Part shown: piece after piece, positions 1 through 18,800 of the stretch
Numbering within the stretch: position 1 is the first letter of the stretch
Layout: each line of letters opens with the position of its first letter
Assembly: GCA_000002445.1 (NCBI GenBank)
Contig: CP000068.1
Coordinates: 1-64,000, forward strand
Source: Trypanosoma brucei
Taxonomy: Eukaryota
Reading direction: 5' to 3'
Length of the DNA: 64,000 nt
Made by a program: the position numbers and the translations under genes
Notes under the pieces: generated by a model
What the model was told of the DNA's origin: nothing
Database searches by the model: none
Seen by the model: the letters and a program-made list of their open reading frames with translations, nothing else

Positions 1-966
1 GATCCTCCACAGGTCATCGAAAAGCGGTAAAAATTTGGATTGGGTAAAGGAACAAGAACTAAAATTAAATAACGCAACACCTTCCTCCGCCTTTTCTACT
101 TGCTTTTCATTTTCGAAGCTTACGCGAAGTAGACAACAGAGAAAACTCGAAATTAACCTTTTTTAGCTTTTAATAATAAAACTAAAGATTAAGTCTTTGC
201 TACGCAACGCCCCATTATGTGACACGATCATTTACCCGTACGGCGGACAAAAGATAGTAATAACACACCACACGAAAACTGCTATACCAAAATACCAAAA
301 ATGTAACACACGCAGATCACCCACTATGTATACATTTTATTTCTTTTTCACTGTCATGGATAGCGTTTTCACTCCTTCACATCATCCCCACCTGTTTCGG
401 GTCTCACACCAACACAAGAATGTTGCGGCAAGCAATTTGAACCAATGAAACTTTCTAACACATCATGCCATCCAACTAAGAGCAACATAAAACCACATAC
501 GAGAAAGAGACATAGTTTATTAGTATATCACCATATCACGTTAGAAGTGATATACTTCCAACATGAGCATAGCAACACTTTACACTAATTCCCCCTCCCT
601 ATAACAAAAGTTAACACATTTAAAGAAAAATACTTATAAATACTCCTGGTTAAAGGCATAATAATAATAATAATAACTCATCCGCTACTGTTTCTCCAAC
701 AAGTATTGAAACTAAGTTTCCTTGTCTCGTTTATAATCTATTTTTCGATACCCTTCATTACTTGTTTTGTTGTATTTGTGACGTTTTTAATCGTTGCACC
801 ATTCCCTTTACACGATTAATAACCTTAGTCTATTTTCCCCTCTTCCTACTATCCTCTTAATTTTAGGATGCTCACTATTACTTAATTTGAATTATTCGAT
901 CATCTTCTCATGTCTCGCCACAACGCTGCATGCACACACCCCCTGGTGAAAGTAGTTGCAAGTTGG

Positions 967-1383
967 TTACCTATCATCAGCTTTACCTCCATTTTGCACG
1001 GCACTCACCCCATTAGACATTTTCACACTTCTCAACGGACTTGCAACAACGACTTCTGTGAACATATGAGGCTTAAAACTGCAGAGTATCACTGAACAAC
1101 CTTTACCCACCCCGCCGTTCTTCCTTTGAGTACTGTCTTTTCCATAATCCTGCCCATCCTGATTACTTGTTTCCAGCCCCAGCGTATTTCTTTCCTCGAG
1201 CCCCGACATTTCACCCAGTGGCAGCTGCTCTCTAATACCCTCGATGCCATTCCCTGTTAGTTTCCCACTTGGAACTAATTTCTCACCATTCTCCTTTCCC
1301 CTGTCGCTGCCTTCCACAGCTCCCGAATTCTGCTCTTCTTGACTCACTTTCTGTTCCCTGTGGTCAGTTCCCAGGTGTGCCAC
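967..1383 (-). pseudogene. Gly/Glu/Gln-rich low-complexity ORF fragment (138 aa). Possibly a truncated paralogue of the acidic ORF at 12220-13095.
   Basis: The ORF track gives 138 aa with acidic G/E/Q/S-rich composition, like 12220-13095. It lies ~1.5 kb upstream (in the minus sense) of the GPI-protein gene at 2864-3892. The 12220-13095 ORF has the same spacing to 14812-15852. No signal peptide is visible and I could not align the homology by eye. Confidence 0.2.
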
Positions 1384-2863
1384 CGACCCCGAGACTCGGG
1401 GCCTGACAGATGGCTGTTCAACCTGGCCTTCGTTCCTGCCGCCAACTACAGCATCGTTCAGTTGTACGCTTACCGTAAAGAATTTTCTTACAAGTCTGGA
1501 GACGATTAGCCATTTTCACCCTCCGCTGCTGGATCCTGCATTGCATCGATCTCTTTTTCTTGTCAGGTTGTTGACTGCGCTCACGCTTGGCGCCCTACAA
1601 TCGGGAAGTAGGGGAGCTGAAGCAAGGGGTGGACCCGCCCCCTTTTGGCTGCCACCAACCGTAGTCAAACCAGCACCGCCTGCCTCCGCTGGAGGAGTCC
1701 GAGTATCCCTAGCATCTCTTGCTTTTGCTTGTCGCCGGCAATGAAGCTTTCGACTCAGCCAATAGCAAAATCAATATTAGTGTCAAAAATGGGGCTCTTA
1801 TAGGTCTTGGCATTGTTTTCCTTTAAGGTTGCAGCTGAGCAAACTACACAAAACACTACTAACAAAAAGGAAAACATTTTACGTACATATGCGACATCGA
1901 AAGCAATTACAATTGGATTCGGAATTAGAGAAAATAGAAATTTATTAATGTATCACATTTCATTCCGATTGTTTCCTCCCATGAAGAAGCCTCTCAAAAA
2001 CCATGAGGGTCCCTTCTGTTGCTTTCAGTGCCTTTTAACTTAATTTTTGATACACCATTCAGGTGCTTCCTTCACCCACAGCCCTTTTGATCGCCTCTCA
2101 GCTGCCTCACATCATTCCCAACTTTCCATATACCTCGAACTCCAGGGTTACACAAATAAAAATCAACTTAGACAATATGTCTTTTGGTGGCTTCACATTC
2201 CTACCAATTAGATAGAAAACCATACATCTAGTTCTTTCAATATTTTTTTAAATAAAGAATTTATCGGAGTTCACTAGTCTTTTTGTTACCACTTCCTTCA
2301 TCACCTGTAGGTGACTTTGTCGCCAAACCAACACGTTTGAACTTGACCGTAGCTTCAATGGTTTCCTGTATACATAACTATATTTTTGCTCTCCATTCCT
2401 AAATGCTGCAACCAAGCTTCCAAAGAGAGGTCACGCTGTTTCTGCTTCTTATGTTTGAATGGGCTCAATTGTAAGCCTCGTAAGATTCACTTCCTGTGTA
2501 CATTTATAACGCGGTTCTTTTAATATATCTTGTCCTTCCAGATTCCATAATTCCATAACAACAATATTAAAATCTGTATTCGTTCAATCCCAAAAGTTAT
2601 AAAGTTTATTCACTATTTGCTTTTGTTTTCCTTACTGTCGCTTTTACTTTTCCTAACTTTTGTTGTTACTGATAGGTGTGAGCGGATTATTTTATTCTTT
2701 TGAGCATTGTATTTTTCCATTTTATGCAACTTTTTAAACGGGTGTAAAAAAGAAAAATTATTCCTTCCTTTCCTTTACTCTGTTCGCTGGTCTTCTGCGC
2801 TGGTGTTTGGCGTATTTTCCTTATTAAGGGTTAAAAATAAAAATAATTGAATGATGAATAAAT

Positions 2864-3892
2864 TTATGCAAACAGCCAAAATAAAAATATCCGTAGAAAC
2901 TGTAAAATAGTTTTGGACGAACTCTTTTGTTCTTCTGGTGGTCTTGTCGTAGTGGCATCTTTCTCAGAGCTGGTAGTTGCTTGCGCATTTGGGTTTCCAT
3001 CATTTTGTGGTCCTTCTGTCCCCTTAGCTGGTGAGTTATCCCCTGTGCTTGGAACTGTGTTTGGCTTTGGATTTTTTTCCATGCTTGGCTTCCCCTCCGC
3101 ACGTGGTTTTGTGCTTCCACTTGCACTTTCATCCTTGCTCATTTCTTCAACTTCTCTCACCAGATCTTCGAGCTTATTAAGCCATTCAATACCACTTGCG
3201 TTGTCCTCGTTAGATCCCCTTGGGTACAGCACACAAATGCCGTCGTTCTCTGATTCCGCTCCATTGCAAGTATGCAGTCCGTACTCTTTACCTCCCCCGT
3301 AGGTATAGAAATGCTGGCGTCCATCTGAGTTCTTACGTTTCTTTATGCGCATCCTGAATTGAACCTTATTCTCGTGAAATTCAGTTTCTGATGGCACACC
3401 TTTTCCACTTCCAGTTATGCATCTACTCCTCAAGTCGTCCCACGTGCTTCGGTGCTTTTGGGTGGTTGGCCATTCCTGGGAGTTAACTTTTCTTACATTT
3501 CCCGTGTAACAAAGGTCCTTAAGATCTGGTTGCCGGTTTGTTCCCTCGCATAAGCAAATAAGATCTCTTACAAGTGCCTTTCCTCCGTGGGTACGTTGGT
3601 TTCCACTATCTTGGCCACAATCCATCTCCCTGTGAACTTTCCATAACATTTTATTTACGCCATCGACATTTGCTCCAAACAATATATCTTTAGCTTTGAT
3701 TTGAAGAGAAGTTACGTCAACACCTAGTTTTCCCTTCATTCGCTCCAGTAACTCATTTATTTGTTCTGTCAAGCTAACAAATCCGCACAACGTTTGGAAC
3801 TCCTTCACATTAAGTATATCCTGCTCCGCGCTGGACACACAAGTCATTACTAAAGACACGCCCACAATTGATTCCACTGATTTCTTCCACAT
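2864..3892 (-). CDS. Surface-type protein of 342 aa with an N-terminal signal peptide and a C-terminal hydrophobic GPI-signal-like tail. ESAG-like subtelomeric family member, possibly ESAG9-like. Paralogue of 14812-15852.
   Basis: Single 342-aa ORF. The N-terminus MWKKSVESIVGVSLVMTCVSSA is hydrophobic. It has conserved Cys residues, N-glycosylation sequons (NAS, NSQ, NSD) and a Ser/Thr/Pro-rich stalk. The C-terminus is ...TILQFLRIFLFWLFA. Several blocks are shared with 14812-15852: FGGGK..GLHTCNGA..SE.DGICV.YPRG..EDNASGIEWL.KLE.L. The family name is a guess from memory, not from a search. Confidence 0.6.
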   Translation of the reverse strand: MWKKSVESIVGVSLVMTCVSSAEQDILNVKEFQTLCGFVSLTEQINELLERMKGKLGVDVTSLQIKAKDILFGANVDGVNKMLWKVHREMDCGQDSGNQRTHGGKALVRDLICLCEGTNRQPDLKDLCYTGNVRKVNSQEWPTTQKHRSTWDDLRSRCITGSGKGVPSETEFHENKVQFRMRIKKRKNSDGRQHFYTYGGGKEYGLHTCNGAESENDGICVLYPRGSNEDNASGIEWLNKLEDLVREVEEMSKDESASGSTKPRAEGKPSMEKNPKPNTVPSTGDNSPAKGTEGPQNDGNPNAQATTSSEKDATTTRPPEEQKSSSKTILQFLRIFLFWLFA

Positions 3893-5605
3893 TTTTGTTC
3901 AACTTTATGTAATTAAACCCTTTTCTTTAAAAGTATTTACGAAGATAAGTCACCATTTTCTCGCTTTTCTCGTGAAAATTATAAACATAATACACTAAAA
4001 AACATTTTCGACGGGAAGGTTTTTCACCAATTCGAATATTTTGAATTGAAGAGAAAATGAGGCTCCTCGTTCATCTCATGTTTCCTTCGTTGTGGAATGT
4101 GCGTCATCAATGCATCGCGTCGCACAGCCCGTACAAACTTATTGGCAGCAAAGGCATAAAGGCTAGCTCCCGTTCCAATCTACCAACATTGGAAACCGCA
4201 CCGCCAGGTTTTTGGAAGTTGTCAGTCTCTCGCCGCGGTGACGGGTTTAGAGGAATATAGTCGGCAGCTAGTACAGGTTTTTTCCATTCGGTAAGCGTGG
4301 AGGCATGTCAACACTTGATACACTCTCAACCCTTGAGATGTTATGTTTTCCTCGCATGAAGAAAGCACTGGTTTATGTTGGCGGCTCCTCAACTGCAAGT
4401 AAAAGTTAAGATGTTATTTTTTCCCCGTCAATCACACTCTCCAGTAACAAACCAATCTCCAACACATAACGGTGGAAAAGGCATTCTAGTCCAGGACGCA
4501 CAAATATGTGATACAGATCTTTACACTCAGTAGCGTAACCATGTTCGTTTTCTGGCTGAATTAAATGTTTGGCGCTTTGATGCGCTAAGTGTATTCCTCC
4601 CCAGTGCAATCCTCTACAGCAATGGGGTCTTACCCAACGGTAGACTCAATACTTCAATACCGAAGCTCCGTGACGACTTTGTTGGAGTCTGATATTTGGG
4701 AACGAGGTAGGCGTTCATTTCCTTGGGAAAGTTGATTATACCGCTCACCAATGCGTGTTAATGCTGGTACTGAGGGCATTGGGTTTCCCGTTCATCAGAA
4801 GTAATTGTCGTCTCAGTCGGTAGTATTTCACTTTCCTCTGTCACTTACCATCATGGCTCCGTACTTGCTGTGTTTCCCTTCGGTTGATTTTGATAGTTCC
4901 GAGCTATTGCTCTCGGATAAGACGCCTTTACATCCAATTTATCTACAAAGTCACAGTGAATTTCATTATAGTGAATCTGTTGGTGTACTCTCTTAATTTG
5001 TTGGGAAAATTAAATTCATTGCCTTTTTAATCTCCTACTTCTATTTTCTGATGTAACGTGTCTCTTGAAGGCATAAATAGCTGTTAGGGGCGCCACACTA
5101 CGGTGTTCAACCCCTTGATGCATTGTATCATCTTCCACTCTTTGCCTTTACAGATTTCCTTTTTGAATTTTCTTCGTGCCTTCGTGAGAGTTTCCCCCCA
5201 CTGGCGCGGCCATCAGCCATCACCGTAGAGCCCTGAGATGCTATCGGTCTGGCGACTGTGGCAGAGTCTCCCTTTTTTTTATTCATTCTAACACACTCTC
5301 TATAATTTTTGTTGTAGCTCCACAGTTGAACGGAATACAGCAGATGGGGCGAGAAGCCCCCCACCCCAGACTCTCCCAAAGATGTCAATTAGCAATCCTT
5401 TTGTTTTGATTTTTGTTATTCGTTTATTATTCTCTCCCCCTCTTTTTGTTTGTGTTGCTTGTTGATTGCATACCTCCTCTGTCTCTGAGGGTGTCTGGAC
5501 TATTCCTGCGTCCGGTGCTTTTCCTGCTAGCTACACTCTCGGCAATAAGGGGGGAAGTTGCAGAAGGGAGAGTGGGTTGTATGACTGTTACATTAGGTGA
5601 GGACT

Positions 5606-6856
5606 TCACCTGCGGCCGGCTCCGTTCAACCGCAATGAGAAACTGTGCCAGCCTTTTAGAGAAACATATATCCTGCACACACACACACCTTCTACCGCAA
5701 ACCCGACACGTAACTCCTTCAAACTGGGACAGCTCATCAAGTGCAGCGACGTTTCTTCGCAGTCGCCGCGTTGGCTGGTAACAGCGCGCTCTACCTTCAT
5801 ACCGTGCATCTTCTTTTGATGTAGGGTGAGGCCAGTTTTGCTAGCACACTGCCTTCCGCATGCCGGGCACACCAACATGGATGCGTTTGTATGCGGGGAA
5901 TCAGTGGCACACAATTTTGTGCTTTTGCTGCATTTAAGCTCGACTCCCTCACCTTTGTGGAAAGCCTTACAGTGTCGGATGAGGGAGTCCCTGCAACTGA
6001 GCACTTTTTGGCACACACCACACTGCACCTCGCCTTTCCCCGGGACGTCAACGTTTCCCTCACGGGCACGCTTACGAGGGAATTGCACCAACACCACAAA
6101 GTTACCTCCCTCCGTCACTATGTTCTTATGTTTGAATTTCTTGTGTAGTGACAGGGAAGAGCGTGTATCGAAGCTCGCCTCGCACAGGTCACATTGAAAC
6201 GGCAGCTTCCGTGTATCCTGAGGGGCTGGCGCTGCTGGGACGCTACCATCTCCTTTCACTGAGTCTTCGTTCTCTCGCCCCCTTTTCACGCAGCAACTAC
6301 CGCTACCTATGCCATGTATTGTTTGAAGGCTGTGTAATAGTCGGCCTGGCACTACGAATTTGGAGGTACAGAGGGTACAATGAAGCACCTGCGGTCTCAT
6401 CGGGACTCGTGTGCTCGATGGTAGAGGAACGATCGCCAGCACTGGAGGGGGCTCCGGGGGGATGTCCACTGCAGGTGTTGCATCGCCGTATTTGATCCTC
6501 CTGAGGGCATCAGCTCGCACAAAGCCATGTTTGTTTACCATATGCGTTACAGCACTCGAGCGACATTGGCATGTGGCATCACATTCCGTACATTTGGTCG
6601 GTTCGGAGGTTCTCTGAAGAGTGCGTGTCGCAACAGTTGGGGGCATTCGTATTGTTGGCCCTATCGCTGCATGTTGTGGGTTACACCATCGGCACTGCGG
6701 AGGCACACTCGGGTTGATCTTTCGCAACATCCATCCATAGTGTCTTGAAGATCCAACCCGAAAGCGTGCCAGTGCCGTTTCTTCCTCCCTCGTCAGTTCT
6801 TCTTTATGTTTTGTTGGAAAGTGGTTGCCCGTGATACCAAACCTATGAGTGTTCAC
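5606..6856 (-). pseudogene. ingi ORF segment 3: C-terminal C2H2 zinc-finger domain.
   Basis: 416-aa ORF with repeated C-x2-C...H-x3-5-H motifs: CDLCEASFDTRSSLSLHKKFKH, CGVCQKVLSCRDSLIRHCKAFH and CPACGRQCASKTGLTLHQKKMH. Confidence 0.8.
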
Positions 6857-6862
6857 ATGGAC

Positions 6863-9412
6863 TTATTCCGATCTAAGCACTCGGTTCGCATAAGCAATGA
6901 TGTCGGGGATCCATGTATTTCGCAACTGTGGTAAATCAGCGGCCTTTTTGGCCATGTCATCGCAAACCTCATTCCGTTTCACGCCACAATAGCCAAACAC
7001 AAATTGCAGTCGGATACGTATCTTCCTTCTCTGAACTTGAAGCAGAAGCCTCCATAGTCGTCTTAGAATTGGGTTCGTTACGGCTAGGGGGCCTGTCTGC
7101 AGTGCTGTTAACATTGACAGCGAGTCAGAGAAGATGAACAACCTGCTCGGTGTGCTTCTGTATGCCGGAAGCCATTTCAGCAGCCGTTGCAGTCCTATCT
7201 CTAATGCTACGCATTCCGCTCTGTAACTGCATGAGAGTTCCCCTGCTCCGGTTTTGGGTGCGCAAATCAGCGTGTTGTTTCTATAGAGCAGGGCAGCTGC
7301 TCCGGACTTCTCACCGAGGGACACGGATCCATCAGTCCACAATTCGTAGTGCTCTCGCCGCGGTGGCTCCTTCCCCCTCCGTGCAAAATGCCGTTCAATC
7401 CACTTTTCGGAAGCCTCCCTTTTGAAATCGTCAGGGTCATCAGCGCACACAGGCTTTATCTGCGTGTGAAATAGCGGTCGGCAGCTGTAGCGGAGCGTCG
7501 ATGTCTCTAGTGGGTGCTCGCGTGGTTCAATGCGGAGGTGGGAGTAGGACCGCATGATGCGGGAATGTAGGGCTCTGACTGGATGTTTGCTGTGATATAC
7601 TTCTTCAGCACTGCGCCGCAAACATCCGCCTCGTGACTCACACATCAGCATGAATTTCATACTGCGCACAAGAGTGGTTGTCTTGAGTGGCAGGAGGTTT
7701 GCTTCCGGCAGAGAGTCCTCTTTGCGCGTCCCATGCGGTATGCCGGCTATGATGCGACTGACTTTGTGTTGTGCTGCTGCAAGGAGGTCGAGACTTTGTT
7801 CCGAAGCGTCCCAGTACCATACCTCAATGCCATACATGGTGTGTGCCTGTACGAGTGCTAGATAAAAAGCTCTCAGTACTTGTCGTCTTGGCCCCCATGT
7901 AGAAGCTGAGATGGCTGCTATCTGCAGTAGTCTGAAGTCCATCTTGCGTCTCGTTTCGGCCGCATGTGTTGCCATCCCCTGCAGACACTGGAATGTTACT
8001 CCTAGAAGCTTCGGTGTCCTGTCAGCTCCTATTCTTTCGCCGTCCAGTTGCAATGTAAGGGGGTGGCGCTCTATACACCCGAAGAGTGTGCACTTTGTTT
8101 TCGCTACATTGACAGACATGAAGTACTCTTGTGACCACTGTAACACCACGTTGAGACCGCACTGTAGTGTGTGGTTGATGACATCCCTCTCTGTGTCCCT
8201 CGCAAGTAGCGTCGGGTCGTCTGCAAAGAATCCGTGCTGCAGTAACGGCACTTCTGCAAGGCGTTGGCTCAACGAGTTCATGGCAATAATGAACATGATT
8301 GGGCCAATGACAGTTCCTTGTGGCACTCCTCGCTCAAATGTTCTGCTTCTGGAAAGCTTCTCCTTGAATCTCACTCTGCCAGTTCGGTTACTCAGAAATG
8401 ATAGGCACCACTTCACAATGTGGGGTGATACCTTCATTCTGTGCATTTCCCTCGCAATTTTGTCGTGGTCTACTGTATCGAATGCCTTCTCGTAGTCAAC
8501 AAATACAGCACCCGTACGATATTGGTGCGCGGGACGGCAGAGGGCAGCGCGGACGTGCAGGAGTTGTTCGAGCGTTGAGCATCCGGGGCGAAAGCCTGAC
8601 TGCTGCGGCGTCAGCTGGGACTCAACAGTGTCTCTAAGCCTCGCGGCAATTATGCGCTCCATGACTTTGCAGAGACAGCTCGTGAGCGTCACAGGCCTGT
8701 AAGAATCGAGGTCCTCCGCCTTTTTTCCGGCCTTCAGGATGGGGATGATAACACCAGTCTTCCATGCAGGCGGCACGACTCCCGTTCGTAGGCCCTCATT
8801 GAATAGCCTCAGAACAACATTCAGCGCTGTTCTGCCGAGATGTTGCAGTGCCTCGTTGTATAAGCAATCAGGTCCGGCTGCGGATCCACTCGGTAGCAGT
8901 TTGATCGATCTCCGTAGTTCAGCCATCGTGATGGGACTGAACTCACTCGCTATCGTCTTTATTGGTGCCGGTGGGTGTGAGTCGGGGTTCCTTCTTGCGC
9001 GGGACGAGTACAGTTTACTGAACCTCTCAGCTTGACGGTAGTCCGTGATGGCCGCGTTATCAACAAGTACAGCCGGTGTGGTTAGTGGTCGTGGCGCATA
9101 TACTTTCTTGACAATGTGCCAACTGCAGCGGTCTGACACCGCAAGTCTGGAGCATAGCGTGCTCCATCTCTTCTTTGTGGTACGGTCCAGGATCTGCTTA
9201 CGCGTGGCTACCAACTTTTTCCTTCGGTGGGAGGGTCCGCATCCAGCTATCTCTTCATCGAGTTTCGCGAGCTCAGGTGTCCAATGTGGTGGCGTTGCTC
9301 TGCAGCCACGGGGGACGGAGACCTTCGTCGCAACGCGGATGGCGGAGCACAATTTCTGTTCCGGGGTGTTGACGTTCTTCCCTCTACCAATTTTTCCTGC
9401 AGGGCTCGTCAA
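6863..9412 (-). pseudogene. ingi ORF segment 2: reverse transcriptase and RNase H.
   Basis: 849-aa ORF. RT motifs PQGTVIGPIMF and HGFFADDPTLLA (YXDD-type). An RNase H-like motif ELWTDGSVSLGEKSGAAALL lies near the C-terminus. A stop at 6860-6862 separates it from the next segment. Confidence 0.85.
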
Positions 9413-10418: not shown

Positions 10419-12219
10419 CACAATGGATAGGATTACCATTAGCAATAGATTAAGAGAAATTTTATTGTGCATACCACTCTCTCATAAACACAAGAACGGC
10501 TGCACTCAAACACCGGTATAATTTTTCCTTAGTGAGAAAATGAAAAAATGGCCCCCTTTATCTAAACAAAGGGCTAGAAGACGCCGAAGAAGGAAAGACA
10601 AGGTATTGGCTGAAATATAGTTAAAATAAAATCACACAATGACTCCAAGGTGGTACAAGCTGTGAGACACTACATGGTCTCAATATTACTTTTTATGAGA
10701 AAAGAGACACACAAGTGTATAGAAATACAATGCTTCCCTGAAAAAGCATTTGCGGTCAAACATAAGTGTTTCCTGCGGAACAAAAAACTATTGCCGTGAC
10801 ATATTGCCTGCTGTAGAATAACAGAACACGTAATAGTAAACCCCACTTCCTATTTACCGCTAACATTCAATGCATTCTGCCAAATTCTCGCTTCCATCTC
10901 TTTATGTCGGTTGGTAAATGGCAACGCACTGTAATCACACAAATACCTCGAACGCATGGTTTTTTTCTTGAAATCATGAAATTCGCCGCAACCATCACTC
11001 TTCACAGATTTCACGATACCCCGCCAGGATCCTCTTCATCCTCGCATGTCGCTGCGAGCTAAAACGTTTGCAACCGAAGAGATTATTTTGTGGAAAGCGA
11101 ACTACTTCAGATTCTTATTATCATGTAAACGAATGAGAAATCAACTTCTTGAAAAATAAACAAAAGCTTTGAAAACCGTTCAACAGAAATAGAGAAATAA
11201 TAACCAAAACTTGCCTCTTATCAGTGCTAAACATTGACATCCGCTTATATTCAATTAATCAAAGAGATAAAAGTCCATAGTGCATTTACTAAAGCACCTT
11301 CCTTTTGCGGTTGCATCACTACTACTATTATCTCTATGTTTCACTGTTCAGGGCATGTGAGGGTCAACTCCGCGAACTCAAGCGCGAATTGCCCTGTTAA
11401 TTAAATAGGTTGTGGATAACCTTTTGCAAAAACAATTAAATCAAATACGCACCGTGAGAATCTTTGAAGAAGTTATGTTTTTTAAAATTAATTGCAGCTC
11501 ATTTCGGGTACTGCCTAAAGCAACCCCCATCGCTTTCCATACACTTACCTGCTTTTGCGACTATTATCAATTTATTCAAGTCTTCGACGTATCTGTACCC
11601 TGTGCGATTCTCTCACTCATTGAATGCTTACTGTTTCAATGACTTATGCCCTCATTATTTGCACCAATTAAAATTCTTTTTTTATGATTACCGATAGAAC
11701 CCTAAATTTAGTTACCGCAATCGTCTGCGTTTTCCTCATTTAAGTTAATGATCTAAATAAGTCCTGCTTTAAACCATTTTCGCTCTCTTAGAAATGTGCC
11801 TTCTTCTAGGCACGGGGCAGCTCTTTATAATTTTTAGAACGCAAAAAAAAATAGTTCACTGAAGAAGATCTCTCCAACACCGTTAAAATTTTAGATTCTT
11901 TGCCTTATCAACGGTCCTGTGGAACTGTCCATGGTTTTTTTGATACTTGTGATCTCATTAATGGTATTCTTTACGCACTCAAAACCTTTAAGTTACGTTC
12001 CCTCCCTTCTGTCTTTTCGTTTTACCTTTTCATTTTACTCATGATTAGGGCAGAGTCGTTCATCCCTGTTATAGCATTCCCCTTTAAAGTGTTATTTCGT
12101 TAAAACACCACAAAAATTTTGTTCTCGTAAAAGAAGTTGTTAATTGGTTACTGTTTCCCATTCGAACCCGTGTCATACTTTTCTGATCTCATTAGATAGT
12201 TGCGTAGTTATGCACGGTC

Positions 12220-13095
12220 CTAGACCAACAAGCGTTGAACGCATATGAAGCTTAATGTTGCGGTGATTAACATCACGTGCCTTTTGTGCGCTGTGGTTCT
12301 CCCCACTTGTGTACTGTTTGCTTCTTGCTCCAGGTCATCCAGATCCTTTCGTGTCTCTTTTTGTGCATTTTCTTTCACAGTGCCCAAAATCACCCTCTGT
12401 GCTGGCGGCCACTTCATGTTGCTCTCTCCTTCCTTTGCTACTTGCAGTGGTGCTACATCCCCTCCTTGGTTCTGGCCTTCATCCCCGCTCCCGGGGTTTC
12501 TTTGTTCACCCTCGGCCATTTGTTTTACTTGCCCTTCCGCTTGTCCGCTCCATAACTCAGTAGTCCTTTGTTGCCCTTCATCTGAGGACGGCTCAGCTGA
12601 TCCTTCGTTCCCTCCGCGAATTGCGGTACCACTTGCTCTACCAACTTGTCTTTCACCATTTATAGTGGCACTCAAAGCGTCAAATGATGGCTGACGAGAA
12701 GCGATTGAACGCAAGTCTAGGCCTCCTCTCTCTTCATGTTGGGTAGCGACCTCGTCGCCGCTTCTCAGGCTGCTTTCTGGCTTCTTCGCTGGAGCAGGTG
12801 CTGGTGGAAGCGCCCGCTGGACTGTACTGCTCTGAGGTGCAAGGGGGGATCCGCACATCTCCTTTCCATTGGAATACCATATTTCGTTGCATTTACCGCC
12901 TTCGGACGACACCGATACCGAGGTTCCACGAGACAAAGCGATTGCATTACTTGTTGTCAGTGCCAAAAAGAGGGGTGCTGTGACCTTGAACATCGTTTCT
13001 CTTATATTGCTGCTGCACAAACTGAGGGGGAAATCATCACTAAAAACACGTAAGAGATTCATTATCCCTACTGTACCAAGTAGATAGAGGGGCAT
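12220..13095 (-). CDS. Hypothetical acidic, low-complexity secreted protein (291 aa) with signal-peptide-like and C-terminal hydrophobic ends.
   Basis: The 291-aa ORF is long for its surroundings. N-terminus MPLYLLGTVGIMNLLRVF is hydrophobic. The core is S/E/G/Q-rich and probably disordered. C-terminus is ...HVMLITATLSFICVQRLLV. Same strand and spacing relative to the GPI-protein gene as in the other repeat unit. Confidence 0.45.
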   Translation of the reverse strand: MPLYLLGTVGIMNLLRVFSDDFPLSLCSSNIRETMFKVTAPLFLALTTSNAIALSRGTSVSVSSEGGKCNEIWYSNGKEMCGSPLAPQSSTVQRALPPAPAPAKKPESSLRSGDEVATQHEERGGLDLRSIASRQPSFDALSATINGERQVGRASGTAIRGGNEGSAEPSSDEGQQRTTELWSGQAEGQVKQMAEGEQRNPGSGDEGQNQGGDVAPLQVAKEGESNMKWPPAQRVILGTVKENAQKETRKDLDDLEQEANSTQVGRTTAHKRHVMLITATLSFICVQRLLV

Positions 13096-14811
13096 ATCGT
13101 TAACTGCAGAATACCCCGGCTAAGTATTATATCTACTGCCTTTATAAGTCACTTCGTATATTTCACATTCATGATTTGTTGTTTGCATTTGGTCACCTTT
13201 ATCATCATATTTTGACTTTTAAATGCATTATTGGGTAGTTGAAAAATTTTCCCCGACCAACATAGAATGACATTTAAAAAATTAGACGAAATAATAACTC
13301 GCCCCCCAAAAAAAAAACTTTAACTTTCCCAACACGTTATTGCTCTGACTCATCCATCTCCCAAAGCTGATTGAGTGTCTTCACACCATTTTGTATGTCG
13401 TTTCTTCTTTTTTACCGACGGTACGTTCCCTTTTCTCCGCACTTTCACGTGTTTTTGATTTGGTTACTATCCAAAACTTCGGTCATTTCTCTTCTTAACT
13501 CGTCCACTTTCGCACGATCTCATCTAACGGACAAAGAAGGTGTACAAAAGGGTTGTTTAGTGTTCGGAAAATCCCATGTGGAATCCTTTTGCCCCCAATT
13601 GTTAATACCGATATACGGAAGGATATGACGTAAGTTTTAACTCCCTGTAATCTGAAAACCTTCCTATATTAACGCGCGATATTTACAAACACAACAAATA
13701 TAATCTGGTGGGTTTTTGAACTTTAACAAAATTAGACTGGGTTTGAAATTTCCAAACATGTTAATGAACAGATTACACACAGAAAACGAAACACAGGTAA
13801 TGAGAAAAGGAAATGTTGGCATCGCGTTTCCGAATACTTATTTACGTGAAATTGTTTTAAAATAGGTATTACACGGTCATTCGTCATGAATGCATTTGGT
13901 GTTAAAATACGTATATAGGCGCATTGAATGTCGTTTTGTGTATTTCCACTCTCTGGAATACTTCTCTGAAAATGTCATGAGGATTCCTGTTGTCGCCACC
14001 ATCTCCGCTGAGCACCTCCTACGTTAAGCGGTCTCTGAACTCCATAGTGTATTAAACTGCTTCCAATATCTGGATCTCTTAGCACTCTGTCGGATACCTC
14101 ACATAACTACCTATTATTTTCAATTGCTGAACATCACGATTTAAAAAAGATGATGTTTTGTTTTCACCTTGCCTTGGTTAGTTACCACCCGTCAATCGTA
14201 GAAAACGTGTATAAGTGTTGCACTCATTTTTTTTTGTTTTGTAATTACAACTCCATTCTGTTTCTTTTACTCCTTTCGAAAGTTCCCCTCATTATCTGCC
14301 GTTGTCTCTTCATATCATCTCATGTTGTTCATTTTTCCATAACAGCCCTGCTTTTTCCGTGACCCCGCTACCTTCTCATTCCCCTCATGTGTTGACCCAA
14401 CGCTAATTCTTTGGATTCCGCTATTTCGGTCCCTTACATTTTAACTGGTAACCCTGCAAACCCCGTATGAGGTGTGGGCCTTGCATCCGTAACCCAGTTC
14501 ATCTCGCTCCTCCATCTCCCCTTCTTTCTGCACCGTCTACCTCAGTCACTAATTTTCTACCTTAATTTCTTTCGAGCTCACCCCCTTTCTCCCATTGCCT
14601 CAGCTACACTAATCCCCTTTGCCTATCTGTATTCAATCCCTACCAGCTCCTTTTTTCGTTATCGAGTATTATAAGCCTCGCTTAAACGAATGGGGGAAAA
14701 TAGCATGTATTTCACACTTCTCCCATTTTCTTTTACAAATTTTTTCGTCGGGATCCATCTTCATCCTTCTTAAGTATCACAAAAGGTTCAAAAGTTGCAT
14801 GATAGATTGTT

Positions 14812-15852
14812 TTATATAAATGACAGCAAAAATAGCGTTACGGGCCTGGAAGCGACTATGGTGCAACTCCTCTGCTCTTCGGGTGGTCTTTTAGTATTGT
14901 TGGTCATGTCGCTGGTTGTAGCTGTGGTATTTCTTTGCGCGTTTGGCCTTTCATTTTGTGTTGATCCGTCTGTTCTGGCAGTTGTGTGTGGACCTTCAGT
15001 TTTGCTCGGTGTCGACCTATCTGATTTTTCCTTTTTGCTAGTTTCTTTAGTTTGTGGATGTGCATTGCTATATGCTCGTTCTTCAACTGTCGCAACTTCG
15101 CTCCTCAGGGTTTCCAGCTTACTGAGCCATTCAATACCGCTTGCATTGTCTTCATCAGTTCCCCTTGGATACATCACACAAATTCCGTCACTCTCTGTCG
15201 CGGCCCCGTTGCAAGTATGTAGTCCTCTATCTTTACCTCCCCCAAAGATATAGTGGTGTTCCCGTCCACTTGTGTCCGTATACCTCCTTACACGCTCCTT
15301 GAGTTGCTTTTTCTTCTCTTGAAATTCAGCCACCGTTGGCATGCCTTCCCTTAACCCTGTATCGCATTTACTTTGCATAGTTTTCCACAATTTTTCATGG
15401 CCTTCTCCGTTTCTCCACCTTGCAGAGCCAGTTTGCTTGACGTTTCCCGCGTAGCAAATAATCTTAATCGTTGACTTTTGGTCGTTTCCATCACATAGGC
15501 AAACAAGATCTTTCACAAGTGACTTTCCAGCCGGGGCGGCTGCAAGGCCATTACCCCGTCCACAATCCAGATCTCTGTACAGATTCCATGTCAATTTACT
15601 TACATCACTTATTCCCGTTCCAAACAAAATTTCATTGACCTTCTTTTTCAGAGGGTCCATATTCGGCCCTGATGTTCCTTCCATTTTTCCCAATAGCTCA
15701 TTTATTCGCTCTGTCAACCTAACAAATCCGCACAACATTTTAAACTCCTCCATGTTGACTATGCTTTCTTCTGCAGTGGATACGTCCACCACCGCAAAGA
15801 CTAACGCTACCGTATATCTCACCGACTCCGACCACATTTTCACCTCTACCAC
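14812..15852 (-). CDS. Surface-type protein of 346 aa with signal peptide and GPI-signal-like C-terminus. Paralogue of 2864-3892 (ESAG-like family).
   Basis: 346-aa ORF. N-terminus has hydrophobic stretch SVRYTVALVFAVVDVSTA. Shares conserved Cys and motif blocks with 2864-3892: YIFGGGKDRGLHTCNGAATESDGICVMYPRGTDEDNASGIEWLSKLETL. Has a Ser/Thr-rich stalk and the tail RPVTLFLLSFI. About 350 bp of upstream flank (15853-16210) is also homologous to 3893-4300. Confidence 0.6.
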   Translation of the reverse strand: MVEVKMWSESVRYTVALVFAVVDVSTAEESIVNMEEFKMLCGFVRLTERINELLGKMEGTSGPNMDPLKKKVNEILFGTGISDVSKLTWNLYRDLDCGRGNGLAAAPAGKSLVKDLVCLCDGNDQKSTIKIICYAGNVKQTGSARWRNGEGHEKLWKTMQSKCDTGLREGMPTVAEFQEKKKQLKERVRRYTDTSGREHHYIFGGGKDRGLHTCNGAATESDGICVMYPRGTDEDNASGIEWLSKLETLRSEVATVEERAYSNAHPQTKETSKKEKSDRSTPSKTEGPHTTARTDGSTQNERPNAQRNTTATTSDMTNNTKRPPEEQRSCTIVASRPVTLFLLSFI

Positions 15853-18800
15853 TATTTAAATTACTCTCCTTAAAAACCACAAAAATTTAGGTCACAAACC
15901 TTCCATTTTGCAAACTTCAAAATTGTAAACGTAGCACACTCGGCGACATTTCTACAACGCAGGTTCTACTCCTATTATAGGCACTTTGAATTAAGGAGAA
16001 AGCGATGCTCCTCGTTAATGTAGTATTTCCTGTGCTGTGGAGTGTGTGCCATCAACACATTGCAGCACACAGACCGTACAAACTCCTTGGTATGGTGGCG
16101 CGAAGGCTAGTTCCCGATCCATTCGTACGACTTTGGTAACCACTCTGCTGGGTTTCAGGGGGCTCTCAAATATCTGCCGCTATGGCAGTGCCATTGAACT
16201 TTAGTCAAAAGAACTCCGACGTTTCTCCACAAGAACCGAATTTGGAAATGCGACACCACGTGAAACATCTGCATCTGTTGGGGTGGCATCTTCCTCTCGC
16301 ACAACGGAAGCACCAGCATAGATGAGAATTTTCTCGGTTACAAGAAGGAAATAAGTTATTCTCCTACTGAAAACAACCTTTTAACGTCACTCACCCCAAG
16401 CCAAAAGCAACCGCGAAATTCTTCGAGACCTGGCAAATAAGCATATTATACGGATCCTCTTCCCACTTGCCAGGGTGTGTACTTTCCTCGATCTCATGGA
16501 TTCCATGCGGAGCACCCTTACCCATGGAAAAGCTTGCTGCCGCATAACAGTTTCTGTTACATCCTGACTACACTAAACACAGGCTCAACGAATAAGTGTG
16601 AACCTCCAGAACGATAATGTCGACTTTTGACACTTGAGGAAAAGGCCTGCAATGCTTGTTTTCTTGAATTGGGCTGACTTCCCGCTTTCCGATGCATATT
16701 TGTACCGAGACGAAGAGCACCGTATGCGCCGTTCATCAACGATAACTGGAGCCACAATCGATATTCCTTTATCCCTCTGTGGCTAACCGAAAGTGCTTGT
16801 CGTCGCCACCAGTGCTGCTCTTAGTAGGTTTTTTTTCCGCAATATCGGGTCCCTACGCGGGAAGTTAATTCTCCCAACAATTCAGTTGAGAAGCTACAGT
16901 GTATGCATTGTAGTGAACACGTTACTGTATTCCTCTCATTTCCTGGGAGAGTTAAGCATGTCGTTGTTCCGCAGCTTCGTATTCCATTACTTGTCCTTTC
17001 ACCGGTATCACACATTCCTTTACCGTTGTTAATGGGTCTCGGGGGCACCGTACTGTCCTGTATCAGCTCCTGCTGTATCGCTGGGAATTCTTCTGGACTC
17101 AACCTGGAACCACCGATCCTCTATTTCACTTCGCAACTGCATGTAGTGGTGCCATTATTGCAACCTATATTTTTCCGTTAGTTCCACATTACTGTGCTTC
17201 GCATTGAACCAACATACCCATTTGACTTTTTTGCGCTGTGAGCACAAGCAATGGTTTACATCAGTGTGTTGGTCCACAATGTATTACGAGGCCTACCCTC
17301 TTTCGCATAATATAAATGCACAAATTCTACATTTATTCGCGTCTTCTCCATGATTATCAGTAGCATCAATTTCATAAGAAAGATTCACAGATTTGACTAG
17401 CGTGTGCCACCACAGTATAATCTTAAGTAATTCCACAAGCACTTTTAGGCGCAATGCCGCATATCGTACAAATTGTTGATTTTGCAAAGATATCGTTGAT
17501 TTCTCTTCTTCTCTTTCTCTCTGTGCTCACCCCCTCGTGTGGATCATAGTGGCATTTAGCAGTATCATATGCATCTCTCTTCTAATTTGTGCACGGTCAG
17601 CTGATATTATTATATATATAGTATTTTGGAGAGTCGCTCAGGCAGTAGTTTAGGAACCACCAGCAGTTGCGTTCTGGATTCCATGTTACTAAGTGATTTG
17701 TTATTGTAAATACCATGAGTTAGCTGAGAGTTCCAGACACAATACGACATGCTCTACCTTGCATCCTTGCTATGACTCTTGCTCTTTTCTTTTCGCCTCA
17801 TAGTATCACATCTCAATTTTGCATGTGACAGTGTGAGGTATAAGCACAAAGTGGCATGCTTGAAGTGAATTTTTGCTTGTCGCTCACTAATGTTGGTAGC
17901 CCAATGAGAGATGTGGTAGTCATGCGCTTCCAACATTTCATATGCCCATTATGTGCCATCGGAATCCCTTCCACAGTAACACGATAACAGGGTATACCTC
18001 AGGGTTCCTATCCTCTCCTCCACGTGAATGCCACCAAGCCCTAAAATCAGGAATATCCTTGAAGAAGTATCCCATTCAGAATGTATCCTTTATTGTCTCC
18101 ATAATAAGTCGTATTCGCTTTTGTAGTGAGACCTGTTTATGGATAAATTTTCCAGAAGCGTCTCGTTGTTGTTGTTGTTGTTTTCGCTCCGCCGTAGAGC
18201 AGTGCAAAGTTGTACGGTGGCACCTGCAAAAGCGATCAGTTATTCGTGTCCGCTGGTTCGTTGATGTTTGGGTCGCCACAGCTACCTTACAATTTCATAA
18301 TATCTCTCTTTATCCTGGTTTCTACAAACCACTTTCTTCTAACTGTCATTCAGATAAACTCGGTGCAGCATATCACTTTTTTTTCGTGTACGAAATCGCG
18401 CTTCAACCACATTTTTCTCTACCATATGCGCTACGGGGCCATCGTGTATTTGAGAGCCTGCATTGTTCCCACTTGCAAAGTCGCGAATGGTCTTCTGGTA
18501 TTAGCTCAACTGTTCCTTACAACTTTCCTTTTCATACTGTTTCACGTTGTTGGAAGTTTCCTGTTACATTCACAAAAACGTCATCACAGCTGCCAACGAA
18601 TAACGTGTAATGAAACCTATGTGCCTTTGGTGTTAAGGTACACATGCAATCAATTCTACGTCGTCTGTGGCAGAACATATTAATACATTGCAGTATATTT
18701 GCTCAATCAACCTTGATGTTTTCCCCACGTTCCTCCGGGATTAGCCACGCACGGTTTTTCACCTTTTATATCTTTTGGAAAGACGCGGATTGGGAAAAAA

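What the first reader, a model, noticed from the sequence alone, without database searches (positions are those of the whole stretch)
900..16210. Tandemly duplicated two-gene unit encoding GPI-anchored surface-type proteins, split by the ingi
The genes at 2864-3892 and 14812-15852 are clear paralogues. Each has a signal peptide, conserved Cys and motif blocks (FGGGK..GLHTCNGA..DGICV.YPRG..EDNASGIEWL), a Ser/Thr-rich stalk and a GPI-like tail. About 350 bp of 5' flank is also shared. Each lies ~1.5-1.7 kb downstream of an acidic low-complexity ORF (967-1383 and 12220-13095). The ingi sits in the spacer of unit 1. The family resembles subtelomeric ESAG-type genes (ESAG9-like is my best guess), but I could not assign it by eye. 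Divergence between the paralogues is high, at roughly 50% amino-acid identity, so the family appears to evolve fast.
Basis: partly seen in the sequence, partly recalled or inferred. Interest (0 to 1): 0.6.

Follow-up and report, generated by a model that had tools for sequence, protein, structure and literature searches.

The report
Two VSG-related/ESAG9 gene cassettes in T. brucei

Summary
Two homologous head-to-tail units lie on the minus strand, at about 663-5125 and 11841-17080, separated by an ingi retrotransposon (about 5157-10418) and 1.4 kb of unique DNA.

The window is T. brucei brucei TREU927. Both paralogues are exact matches to annotated "VSG-related (VR), putative" proteins, XP_844697.1 and XP_844699.1. 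They hit Pfam VSG_B (E=4e-32 and 7.5e-29) and lack three canonical VSG features: the C-terminal domain, upstream 70-bp repeats and the 3'UTR 16-mer. They are not ESAG9.

The second gene of each unit is the ESAG9-family member. ORF 12220-13095 is XP_844698.1. ORF 967-1383 is the largest fragment of an ESAG9 pseudogene that is frameshifted and absent from the protein collection searched.

- **Divergence:** the paralogues share 42% amino-acid identity, not about 50%. Synonymous sites are saturated and omega is about 0.36.
- **Conservation:** VR2 is 100% identical over 340 residues to an EATRO1125 protein, so the data show an old duplication, not fast evolution.
- **History:** unit 1 is closer (79-85% DNA identity) to a VR-ESAG9 cassette on another chromosome than to unit 2. 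The same pair recurs at other loci and, per the literature, in expression site BES11.

The family is already known, so interest is low. The modest added value is the recurring VR-ESAG9 cassette and the ESAG9 pseudogene missing from the protein set.

The parts
2864..3892 (-). VR1: VSG-related gene, 342 aa. It has a signal peptide, a b-type VSG N-terminal-domain homologue, a disordered S/T/P-rich linker and a GPI-type tail. Identical to XP_844697.1. Inferred to be Tb927.5.110 (VR10).
   Evidence: ORF. Pfam VSG_B E=4e-32. 100% match to annotated 'VSG-related, putative'. Fold search returns VSGs.
14812..15837 (-). VR2: VSG-related gene, 341 aa counted from the ATG at 15837. The ORF also opens at the GTG at 15852. 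Identical to XP_844699.1. Inferred to be Tb927.5.130.
   Evidence: 100% identical over 340 aa to EATRO1125 'VSG 1125.5273'.
12220..13095 (-). Intact ESAG9-family gene (GRESAG9), identical to XP_844698.1 'ESAG protein, putative'. The true start is probably Met35 at about 12993, where the homologues begin. It has a signal peptide, two conserved Cys, an acidic low-complexity region and a hydrophobic GPI-type tail. Inferred to be Tb927.5.120.
   Evidence: Exact look-up. Exhaustive phmmer finds 7 relatives, E=9e-39 to 4e-09. Five of the seven clusters carry an ESAG9 name. Alignment A2.
967..1878 (-). ESAG9 pseudogene of unit 1. An N-terminal remnant lies in another frame (1822-1712). It is not in the protein collection.
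   Evidence: nhmmer 663-1878 with 11841-13059, E=9e-25, 56% identity, many indels not divisible by 3. ESAG9 HMM hits at E=8e-10 and 0.004 in two different frames. No exact or near protein in the collection.
3893..5125 (-). Non-coding region upstream of VR1, shared with unit 2. It is best conserved 100-250 bp upstream of the ATG.
   Evidence: nhmmer E=4e-60. Identity profile. No ORF of 100 aa or more.
15838..17080 (-). Non-coding region upstream of VR2, homologous to 3893-5125. It abuts the divergent strand switch, since the next gene (17942-18610) is on the plus strand.
5157..10418 (-). ingi non-LTR retrotransposon, 5.26 kb. Its ORF is broken into three pieces. No target-site duplication was detected.
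   Evidence: Pfam RVT_1, RNase_H, endonuclease and C2H2 zinc finger. 95.8% identity over 4.18 kb to a second ingi at 59821-64000. 5' end located and no shared flank k-mer of 7 nt or more.
10419..11840 (.). Unique spacer between the ingi and unit 2, with no homologue in the window or in the fetched loci.
663..5125 (-). Unit 1 as a whole: VR1 followed by the ESAG9 pseudogene, plus 1.2 kb of upstream flank.
   Evidence: Collinear nhmmer matches. 79-85% identical to the cassette in L001, on another chromosome.
11841..17080 (-). Unit 2 as a whole: VR2 followed by the intact ESAG9, plus 1.2 kb of upstream flank.

Best explanation
The region holds two head-to-tail copies of a VR-then-ESAG9 gene cassette. 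They lie on the minus strand of T. brucei brucei TREU927, on the 1.608-Mb chromosome (chromosome 5 from memory), immediately downstream of a divergent strand switch and back-to-back with a plus-strand silent VSG array.

**Shown here**
- Each VR gene encodes a protein of about 340 aa. It consists of a cleavable signal peptide, a shortened b-type VSG N-terminal domain with four likely disulfides (eight invariant Cys), a disordered S/T/P-rich linker in place of the canonical VSG C-terminal domain, and a GPI-type signal (17 residues in VR2, 18 in VR1) after an invariant Ser in the motif RPPEEQ(K/R)S.
- The VR genes lack the elements that canonical VSGs use for duplicative activation and for VSG-type mRNA stabilisation (70-bp repeats and the 3'UTR 16-mer).
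- The downstream partner is an ESAG9-family gene. It is intact in unit 2 and frameshifted in unit 1.

**From the literature**
- VR proteins are enriched in the bloodstream-form surface proteome.
- Tb927.5.110 and Tb927.5.130 mRNAs are 4-5 fold higher in bloodstream than in procyclic forms.
- Tb927.5.120 (ESAG9) is induced in stumpy forms, and its C-terminal signal drives GPI anchoring of a reporter.

**Inferred**
- The genes are transcribed by RNA polymerase II as part of the polycistron that starts at the strand switch, and each is regulated through its own 3'UTR.
- The VR proteins act as invariant VSG-fold surface or flagellar-pocket proteins, plausibly ligand-binding like other VSG-derived proteins. 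They are not variant antigens.

**History**
- The two units are old, with non-coding identity of about 56% and dS of about 1.1.
- They belong to a dispersed cassette family.
- Unit 1 is much closer to a cassette on another chromosome, and VR1 is a mosaic of paralogue segments. Gene conversion or transposition has therefore acted on this locus in addition to, or instead of, simple in-situ duplication.

**Confidence**
- The stated confidence of 0.9 applies to the identity and anatomy of the locus (VR genes, ESAG9 partners, ingi, repeated cassette).
- The proposed role of VR proteins as invariant ligand-binding surface proteins is much less certain, at about 0.4.
For: - **Identity:** exact matches to XP_844697.1 and XP_844699.1 (VR) and to XP_844698.1 (ESAG), with consecutive accession numbers on a 1,608,198-bp contig.
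- **VSG-B domain:** Pfam E=4e-32 and 7.5e-29 with no Trypan_glycop_C hit, whereas the VSG at 50401-51924 does have that domain. The family profile hits PDB VSG1954 at E=3e-7 and VSG615 at E=2e-5. The top 15 Foldseek hits are all VSGs.
- **No VSG 16-mer near the VRs:** 4 hits, all in the plus-strand array, against 0.09 expected by chance.
- **No 70-bp repeats upstream of the VRs:** they occur upstream of the array VSGs at 35.3, 37.8, 41.2, 44.6, 48.4, 52.1 and 56.9 kb.
- **ESAG9 identity of the partner genes:**
- **Unit homology:**
- **Cassette recurrence:** L001 has a VR plus a gene annotated ESAG9 (E=2e-17). L006 has a VR plus ESAG9 (E=2e-22). BES11 holds a VR plus a full-length ESAG9 (PMC2567434).
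- **Expression and surface data:** PMC2771046, PMC4587319, PMC11298655.
- **Selection and conservation:**
- **Unit 1 closer to L001 than to unit 2:**
Against: - The mapping to Tb927.5.110, Tb927.5.120 and Tb927.5.130 is inferred from annotation order and product names. It was not checked against TriTrypDB.
- No dedicated SignalP or GPI predictor was available, so the signal peptide and omega site rest on heuristics and family conservation.
- The AlphaFold model is weak (mean pLDDT 53, pTM 0.56; TM-scores to VSGs 0.3-0.45), so the fold evidence is only supportive.
- The biochemical function of VR proteins is unknown, and the ligand-binding idea is analogy only.
- The surface proteome paper reports VR proteins as a class. 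I did not confirm that these two particular genes were detected.
- Not every VR locus has a detectable ESAG9 downstream (L002/L003 and L005).
Confidence: 0.9

Rival explanations
1. The adjacency of the two units did not arise by in-situ tandem duplication. Instead, unit 1 (a chromosome-1-type cassette) was placed next to unit 2 by ectopic recombination or transposition, possibly mediated by ingi elements.
For: - Unit 1 is 79-85% identical over about 3 kb, non-coding DNA included, to the cassette in L001 (T. b. equiperdum CM010672, locus tags DPX39_01...). It is only 56-66% identical to unit 2.
- The ingi has no target-site duplication, as expected if its two flanks come from different insertion sites.
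- Inter-unit homology stops about 30 bp from the ingi, and the 1.4 kb beyond the ingi is unique.
- VR1 is a mosaic of segments that best match different paralogues.
Against: - The same pattern arises if an old tandem duplicate was later overwritten by gene conversion from the chromosome-1 cassette, or if the chromosome-1 copy derives from unit 1.
- Loss of the target-site duplication alone is weak evidence.
- No outgroup or syntenic locus without the ingi was available.
Confidence: 0.3
2. The two genes are ordinary or atypical silent VSGs of the archive that contribute to antigenic variation by duplicative transposition or mosaic formation.
For: - They carry a VSG_B domain.
- VSGnome data sets list close relatives as 'variant surface glycoprotein'.
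- A VSG array lies in the same window.
- VR1 looks mosaic.
- A VR gene sits in BES11.
Against: - There is no VSG C-terminal domain, no 70-bp repeats upstream and no 3'UTR 16-mer.
- The family has its own conserved C-terminus.
- VR2 is identical in a second strain.
- The mRNAs are expressed from their chromosomal position (PMC2771046).
Confidence: 0.04
3. One reading: the paralogues are ESAG9-like (or other ESAG-type) proteins of a fast-evolving family.
For: - They share the overall architecture of signal peptide, low-complexity region and hydrophobic tail.
- ESAG9-family genes are in the immediate neighbourhood.
Against: - An ESAG9 profile searched against all six-frame segments of the window hits 13119-12223, 25856-26677, 1515-970 and 1822-1712, but not the paralogues.
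- The paralogues are VSG_B proteins.
- None of the 28 homologues carries an ESAG name.
- omega is 0.36, and VR2 is conserved between strains.
Confidence: 0.01
4. The repeat is conserved non-coding duplication and the ORFs are not genes.
For: None found, beyond the fact that ORF 967-1383 is indeed not an intact gene.
Against: - Both long ORFs are intact.
- Codon-position identity follows the pattern 2>1>3 (0.71, 0.64, 0.58) and omega is 0.36.
- At least 25 full-length homologues share eight invariant Cys.
- Microarray expression data exist (PMC2771046).
Confidence: 0.01

Closest known systems
VSG-related (VR) genes of T. brucei (defined by Marcello & Barry 2007; 36 in TREU927 according to PMC2854126)
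   Same: The products match annotated VR proteins exactly. They have a b-type VSG N-terminal domain, no 70-bp repeats, a position next to a strand-switch region, bloodstream-enriched mRNA, and surface association reported for the class.
   Different: Nothing essential differs; these are members. This locus sits at the edge of a subtelomeric VSG array rather than deep in the chromosome core.
Canonical b-type VSGs (for example VSG1954, VSG615 and VSG11, which have solved structures)
   Same: The N-terminal domain is homologous (Pfam VSG_B; profile E=3e-7 to PDB 8b3w). Both have a signal peptide and a GPI signal after a Ser of about the 17-residue class (17 residues in VR2, 18 in VR1).
   Different: The VR proteins are about 340 aa against about 480. 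Pfam aligns only the C-terminal half of the VSG_B model well (model positions 157-343). They have no C-terminal domain, no 70-bp repeats and no 3'UTR 16-mer, and they are invariant between strains (VR2).
ESAG9 / GRESAG9 family (stumpy-enriched, secreted or GPI-anchored, regulated by REG9.1)
   Same: This is the family of the second gene in each unit. ORF 12220-13095 is an intact member and 967-1878 is a pseudogene.
   Different: It is not the family of the two paralogues the finding is about. Within the family, ORF 12220-13095 and the ESAG9-like gene at 25865-26680 are so diverged that pairwise BLAST is not significant.
VR + ESAG9 pair in bloodstream expression site BES11 of Lister 427 (PMC2567434)
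   Same: The same two gene families are adjacent, which indicates that the pair moves as a unit.
   Different: BES11 is telomeric and transcribed by RNA polymerase I. The locus here is chromosomal. I could not compare the sequences.
Other VSG-derived non-variant proteins: ESAG2, Fam1 (Tb927.6.1310), ESP5 (Tb927.5.291b), the ESAG6/7 transferrin receptor, SRA and TgsGP
   Same: They share the principle of a VSG-fold N-terminal domain re-used as an invariant surface or pocket protein, often lacking the C-terminal domain and GPI-anchored. Fam1 is 347 aa, b-type, with a signal peptide and GPI signal (PMC3605285).
   Different: These are different lineages. ESAG6/7 is a-type (PMC3605285), and SRA is a-type to my recollection. 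The P0026/ESP5 orthologue is 43% identical to VR1. Fam1 and ESAG2 were not among the 28 homologues and were not compared directly.

Membership tests
VSG-related (VR) genes | Product homologous to the VSG N-terminal domain | tested here: met
   Pfam VSG_B E=4e-32 and 7.5e-29. Profile hits to PDB VSGs. The top 15 Foldseek hits are all VSGs, from a low-confidence model.
VSG-related (VR) genes | Structurally distinct from canonical VSG: no canonical C-terminal domain | tested here: met
   No PF10659 hit in either protein. The positive controls at 50401-51924 and 54856-55323 do hit it.
VSG-related (VR) genes | No 70-bp repeats in the upstream flank | tested here: met
   70-bp repeat sequences taken from this window's VSG array match only 35-57 kb on the plus strand, apart from a bare (TAA)6 at 659-676. 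Nothing matches in 3893-5156 or 15838-17900.
VSG-related (VR) genes | Located outside telomeric expression sites and arrays, typically at strand-switch regions | tested here: met
   The genes are on the minus strand and the next gene (17942-18610) is on the plus strand, so VR2 is the first gene after a divergent switch. The VSG array is on the plus strand from about 35 kb. The locus is nevertheless close to the array.
VSG-related (VR) genes | Annotated as VR in the reference genome | tested here: met
   100% matches to XP_844697.1 and XP_844699.1, 'VSG-related, putative'.
Canonical VSG (variant antigen) | Conserved 3'UTR 16-mer TGATATATTTTAACAC | tested here: not met
   4 matches with up to 2 mismatches, all on the plus strand at 41-55 kb and none downstream of either VR gene. 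The motif itself was recalled from memory, but its distribution in the array validates it.
Canonical VSG (variant antigen) | C-terminal domain plus upstream 70-bp repeats | tested here: not met
ESAG9 (as proposed for the two paralogues) | Sequence homology to ESAG9 proteins | tested here: not met
   The ESAG9 HMM built from alignment A2 does not hit the VR ORFs among 2640 six-frame segments.
ESAG9 (for ORF 12220-13095) | Sequence homology to proteins named ESAG9, with signal peptide, conserved Cys pair, acidic region and hydrophobic tail | tested here: met
   phmmer E=9e-39 to 4e-09 against 7 relatives. Five of the seven clusters carry an ESAG9 name; one is named only 'ESAG protein, putative' and one is unnamed. 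Alignment A2 has invariant C69 and C81.
ESAG9 (for region 967-1878) | Intact ESAG9 coding sequence | tested here: not met
   Homologous (nhmmer E=9e-25; HMM E=8e-10 and 0.004) but split across two frames with stop codons, so it is a pseudogene.
ingi retrotransposon | About 5.2 kb, encoding endonuclease, reverse transcriptase, RNase H and zinc finger, with conserved ends | tested here: met
   Pfam hits. 95.8% identical to a second copy. The 5' end motif (recalled from memory) was located at 10418.
ingi retrotransposon | Flanking target-site duplication | tested here: not met
   The two flanks share no k-mer of 7 nt or more.
ESAG2 / Fam1 (other b-type VSG-derived families) | Closest homology to ESAG2 or to Tb927.6.1310 | not tested
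   No reference sequences were in hand. None of the 28 homologues is named ESAG2, and none lies on a contig other than those of 1.06, 1.61 and 3.06 Mb (TREU927), two T. b. equiperdum contigs and one T. b. gambiense contig.

The most novel reading that the evidence does not exclude
VR and ESAG9 form a conserved two-gene cassette that is dispersed together: twice in this window, on the chromosome-1-type and chromosome-9-type loci of T. b. equiperdum, and in BES11. The pairing would then reflect functional coupling. One example would be a bloodstream-form VSG-fold surface protein working with a stumpy-induced GPI-anchored or shed acidic partner at the slender-to-stumpy transition. The alternative is simple hitch-hiking of neighbours. 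I did not find this stated as a general rule in the papers I could read.
Probability: 0.15. Interest if true: 0.5.

Novelty: already known. Interest (0 to 1): 0.2.

Why it matters
It matters little as a discovery. Both paralogues and the intact ESAG9 gene are annotated in the TREU927 reference, and the VR and ESAG9 families are described in the literature.

The check does add four things:
- It corrects the family assignment. The paralogues are VR / b-type VSG-like, and ESAG9 is the neighbouring gene.
- It shows that the second 'acidic ORF' is a decayed ESAG9 copy that is missing from the protein set.
- It shows that the two units are ancient members of a dispersed VR-ESAG9 cassette rather than a recent local duplication.
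- It documents mosaicism in VR1.

If the VR-ESAG9 linkage proved functional, it would give a handle on two T. brucei-specific surface families whose functions are still unknown.

Tried and rejected
- **Protein comparison of the two acidic ORFs.** Pairwise BLAST and tblastn of 967-1383 against 12220-13095 gave no significant similarity. I would have rejected the two-gene unit on that basis. nhmmer and an ESAG9 profile then showed homology.
- **Word-indexed homologue searches.** The search with the ESAG9 protein returned only itself. The search with the extended 967-1515 frame returned nothing at E<=10. The exhaustive HMMER search was needed to reach the family.
- **Exact look-up of the encoding contig for XP_844697.1.** It is not on record, so I could not list TREU927 gene calls directly.
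- **MAFFT global alignment of the units.** It misaligned the ESAG9 part because the spacers differ in length. I relied on the local nhmmer matches instead.
- **phmmer of VR2 against PDB sequences.** No hits. The family profile was needed.
- **AlphaFold model.** Low confidence, so I used it only as supporting evidence.
- **Rfam scan of the window.** Nothing found.
- **Marcello & Barry 2007, the primary VR paper.** It is not held in the library.
- **Miller 2024.** It does not print the Tb927.5.120 signal sequence and no supplements are held, so the gene-ID mapping could not be verified directly.
- **The gene downstream of VR in L002/L003.** It is the orthologue of Tb927.5.292b (the T. b. gambiense and T. 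b. equiperdum copies). It has an ESAG9-like architecture but no detectable ESAG9 homology.

Full report
**1. What is in the sequence**

ORFs 2864-3892(-) (342 aa) and 14812-15852(-) (346 aa) exist. They align end to end with 42% identity and 65% positives (E=3e-103).

Each has:
- a hydrophobic N-terminus (MWKKSVESIVGVSLVMTCVSSA|EQ and MWSESVRYTVALVFAVVDVSTA|EE);
- a linker made of 52-57% S/T/P/N/G, which AlphaFold leaves disordered;
- a hydrophobic C-terminal tail.

In an alignment of 25 family members, eight Cys are invariant (C36, C92, C113, C115, C128, C158, C209, C220). The motif RPPEEQ(K/R)S is also invariant. After its Ser come 18 mostly hydrophobic residues in VR1 and 17 in VR2. This matches the layout of the 17-residue class of VSG GPI signals as described in PMC11298655. 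No dedicated signal-peptide or GPI predictor was available, so these two features rest on heuristics and conservation.

The whole family starts at MW.., and the annotated protein of gene 2 has 341 aa. Its start is therefore the ATG at 15837, not the GTG at 15852.

**2. Identity of the paralogues**

The window is Trypanosoma brucei brucei TREU927 DNA.
- Gene 1 is 100% identical to XP_844697.1.
- Gene 2 is 100% identical to XP_844699.1.
- Both are annotated 'variant surface glycoprotein (VSG)-related, putative' on a contig of 1,608,198 bp.

Several lines of evidence place them in the b-type VSG fold:
- Pfam puts both in VSG_B (PF13206; E=4e-32 and 7.5e-29). Neither has a VSG C-terminal domain. 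A canonical VSG at 50401-51924 in the same window does have one.
- A profile of the family hits the solved VSGs 8b3w (mVSG1954, E=3e-7) and 8ok8 (VSG615, E=2e-5).
- The AlphaFold model is weak (pLDDT 53, pTM 0.56), but its 15 best Foldseek matches in the PDB are all VSG N-terminal domains.

The genes lack the canonical VSG accessory elements:
- The 3'UTR 16-mer occurs four times, all in the plus-strand array at 41-55 kb (0.09 expected by chance) and never near the VR genes.
- 70-bp repeats of the form (TRR)n plus GGAGAGTGTTGTGAGTGTG occur upstream of the array VSGs at 35.3, 37.8, 41.2, 44.6, 48.4, 52.1 and 56.9 kb. None occurs upstream of either VR gene.

These are the defining properties of VR genes as summarised in PMC2771046, PMC2567434 and PMC3605285. 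The genes are therefore VR family members, not ESAG9.

**3. The second gene of each unit**

ORF 12220-13095(-) is XP_844698.1, 'expression site-associated gene (ESAG) protein, putative'.
- A word-indexed search found only itself.
- The exhaustive HMMER search found seven relatives, with E-values from 9e-39 to 4e-09.
- Five of the seven clusters carry an ESAG9 name. One is named only 'ESAG protein, putative' and one is unnamed.
- The homologues begin at its Met35 (MFKVTAPLFLAL..), so the annotated 34-residue N-terminal extension is probably spurious.

ORF 967-1383(-) is not in the protein collection. It has no detectable homologue by word-indexed search and no BLAST similarity to the ESAG9 protein. 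More sensitive methods do show homology:
- nhmmer aligns 663-1878 with 11841-13059 (E=9e-25, 56% identity, many indels not divisible by three). Forty dinucleotide shuffles gave no hit at all.
- An ESAG9 HMM searched against all 2640 six-frame segments of the window hits four places. These are the intact gene, a third ESAG9-like gene at 25856-26677(+) (E=5e-10), segment 1515-970(-) (E=8e-10, profile positions 118-246), and segment 1822-1712(-) in a different frame (E=0.004, profile positions 7-35).

Unit 1 therefore carries a frameshifted ESAG9 pseudogene.

**4. Extent of the repeat**

nhmmer gives four collinear matches:

| Unit 1 | Unit 2 | Content | E-value |
|---|---|---|---|
| 663-1878 | 11841-13059 | ESAG9 | 9e-25 |
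| 1886-2144 | 13841-14136 | spacer | 0.003 |
| 2872-3891 | 14823-15836 | VR coding sequence | 4e-84 |
| 3911-5125 | 15854-17080 | upstream flank | 4e-60 |

The units are thus about 663-5125 and 11841-17080. The shared 5' flank is about 320 bp at blastn sensitivity (66% identity) but about 1.2 kb in total.

The ingi occupies about 5157-10418 on the minus strand.
- It encodes reverse transcriptase, RNase H, endonuclease and a zinc finger, and its ORF is broken into three pieces.
- It is 95.8% identical to a second copy at 59821-64000.
- It lies between the units, about 30 bp beyond the end of unit 1's upstream homology.
- I found no target-site duplication.
- The 1.4 kb between the ingi and unit 2 (10419-11840) has no homologue anywhere I looked.

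**5. Age and evolution**

A Nei-Gojobori comparison of VR1 and VR2 gives dS of about 1.1, which is saturated. omega is 0.36 in the N-terminal domain and 0.60 in the linker and tail. Codon-position identity is 0.64, 0.71 and 0.58. This is purifying selection on an old pair.

VR2 is 100% identical over 340 residues to EATRO1125 'VSG 1125.5273', so it is conserved between strains. 'Fast-evolving' is therefore not supported.

VR1 has a different history. Its best non-self match is 78%, and it is a mosaic:
- residues 1-60 best match P0003 and P0007 (87-93%);
- residues 91-225 best match P0002 (87-100%);
- residues 211-300 best match P0003 (83-100%).

At the DNA level, unit 1 is 78.6% identical over 2778 bp and 85% identical over 306 bp to the cassette in L001. 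L001 is from T. b. equiperdum CM010672, with locus tags DPX39_01.. indicating chromosome 1. Those matches include non-coding DNA. Unit 1 is only 56-66% identical to its neighbour unit 2.

The two units are therefore anciently diverged members of a dispersed cassette family. Gene conversion or transposition has acted on unit 1. Whether the adjacency began as an in-situ tandem duplication or arose by later juxtaposition (perhaps ingi-mediated, given the missing target-site duplication) cannot be decided from this window.

**6. Recurrence of the VR-ESAG9 pair**

Outside the window, the results were as follows:

| Locus | VR gene | Downstream gene |
|---|---|---|
| L001 | 9989-11032 | ESAG9, 12377-12859, E=2e-17, annotated ESAG9 |
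| L006 (chromosome-9-type contig) | 9971-11080 | ESAG9, 12083-12826, E=2e-22 |
| L005 | present | no ESAG9 detected |
| L002/L003 | orthologue of Tb927.5.291b (ESP5) | orthologue of Tb927.5.292b, no detectable ESAG9 homology |

The Tb927.5.292b-type protein at L002/L003 has 246 aa with a signal peptide, an acidic region and a hydrophobic tail.

[quoted passage not shown] The gene lists in PMC2771046 also place VR and ESAG9 identifiers close together on chromosomes 1, 5 and 9. The pair thus behaves as a mobile cassette. I did not find this stated as a general rule in the papers I could read.

**7. How it most likely works**

*Shown here.* The VR genes encode secretory, VSG-fold proteins of about 340 aa with a GPI-type C-terminus. 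They lack the cis-elements that make a VSG switchable.

*From the literature.*
- VR proteins as a class are enriched in the bloodstream-form surface proteome (PMC4587319).
- Tb927.5.110 and Tb927.5.130 mRNAs are 4.1-fold and 5.4-fold higher in cultured bloodstream forms than in procyclics (PMC2771046 Table 3).
- Tb927.5.120 (ESAG9) is 3.9-fold up in stumpy forms.
- ESAG9 mRNAs are controlled through their 3'UTRs by REG9.1 (PMC5380359).
- The Tb927.5.120 C-terminal signal directs GPI anchoring of sfGFP (PMC11298655).

*Inferred.*
- The three consecutive accessions correspond to Tb927.5.110 (VR10), Tb927.5.120 and Tb927.5.130. This rests on order and product names only.
- The genes are transcribed by RNA polymerase II from the divergent strand switch at about 17-18 kb. 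The next annotated gene, 17942-18610, is on the plus strand.
- Each mRNA is regulated post-transcriptionally.
- VR proteins act as invariant, possibly ligand-binding, surface or flagellar-pocket proteins, by analogy with other VSG-derived proteins. Their actual function is unknown.

**8. Verdict**

The locus is already annotated and the families are already described, so interest is low. The points that go slightly beyond the annotation are:
- the ESAG9 pseudogene that is missing from the protein collection;
- the 1.2-kb shared upstream region;
- the closer kinship of unit 1 to a cassette on another chromosome;
- the VR1 mosaicism;
- the recurrence of the VR-ESAG9 cassette.

Noticed in passing
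window 58596-59825 (+) and 59821-64000 (-): A b-type VSG ORF (409 aa, complete VSG_B domain, no C-terminal domain) ends exactly where a second ingi begins. That ingi is 95.8% identical to the first and has the same orientation. The ingi appears to have truncated or interrupted this VSG.
   Followed up: partly
window 35300-57100 (+): A silent VSG array lies on the plus strand. It holds an intact a-type VSG with C-terminal domain at 50401-51924, a-type fragments at 36319-37110 and 39520-40743, and a C-terminal-domain-only ORF at 54856-55323. 70-bp repeats lie at 35.3, 37.8, 41.2, 44.6, 48.4, 52.1 and 56.9 kb. 3'UTR 16-mers lie at 41036, 44369, 51969 and 55373.
   Followed up: partly
window 25865-26680 (+): A third ESAG9-like gene, XP_844701.1, annotated 'hypothetical protein, conserved' and named ESAG9 by UniRef. 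It hits the ESAG9 profile at E=5e-10 but has no significant pairwise similarity to the ESAG9 at 12220-13095 (E=0.81).
   Followed up: partly
window 5157-10418: The ingi between the units has no detectable target-site duplication, and the 1.4 kb on its far side (10419-11840) is unique. This is compatible with a recombinant element or an ingi-mediated rearrangement.
   Followed up: partly
window 2864-3892 (VR1 protein): VR1 is a mosaic relative to other VR proteins. Successive segments are 87-100% identical to different paralogues (P0003/P0007, then P0002, then P0003). This suggests segmental gene conversion within the VR family. VR2 shows no such pattern.
   Followed up: partly
window 12994-13095 (-): The annotated ESAG9 protein XP_844698.1 carries a 34-residue N-terminal extension that all homologues lack. 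The signal peptide starts at Met35, so the annotated start codon is probably wrong.
   Followed up: partly
window 659-676: A (TAA)6 run sits exactly at the distal boundary of unit 1, where homology with unit 2 starts at 663. It has no GT-rich half, so it is not a full 70-bp repeat.
   Followed up: no
L002 12137-12877 and L003 12133-12873: The gene downstream of the ESP5-type VR (the orthologue of Tb927.5.291b) is the orthologue of Tb927.5.292b. It encodes 246 aa with a signal peptide, a Cys-rich start, an acidic low-complexity region and a hydrophobic tail. The architecture is ESAG9-like but no ESAG9 homology is detectable. It may be a very diverged cassette partner.
   Followed up: partly
L001 12377-12859: The ESAG9 partner of the chromosome-1-type cassette in T. 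b. equiperdum is also N-terminally truncated (124 aa annotated, profile positions 123-254 only). Decay of ESAG9 in this cassette lineage may therefore predate the split from unit 1 of the window.
   Followed up: no
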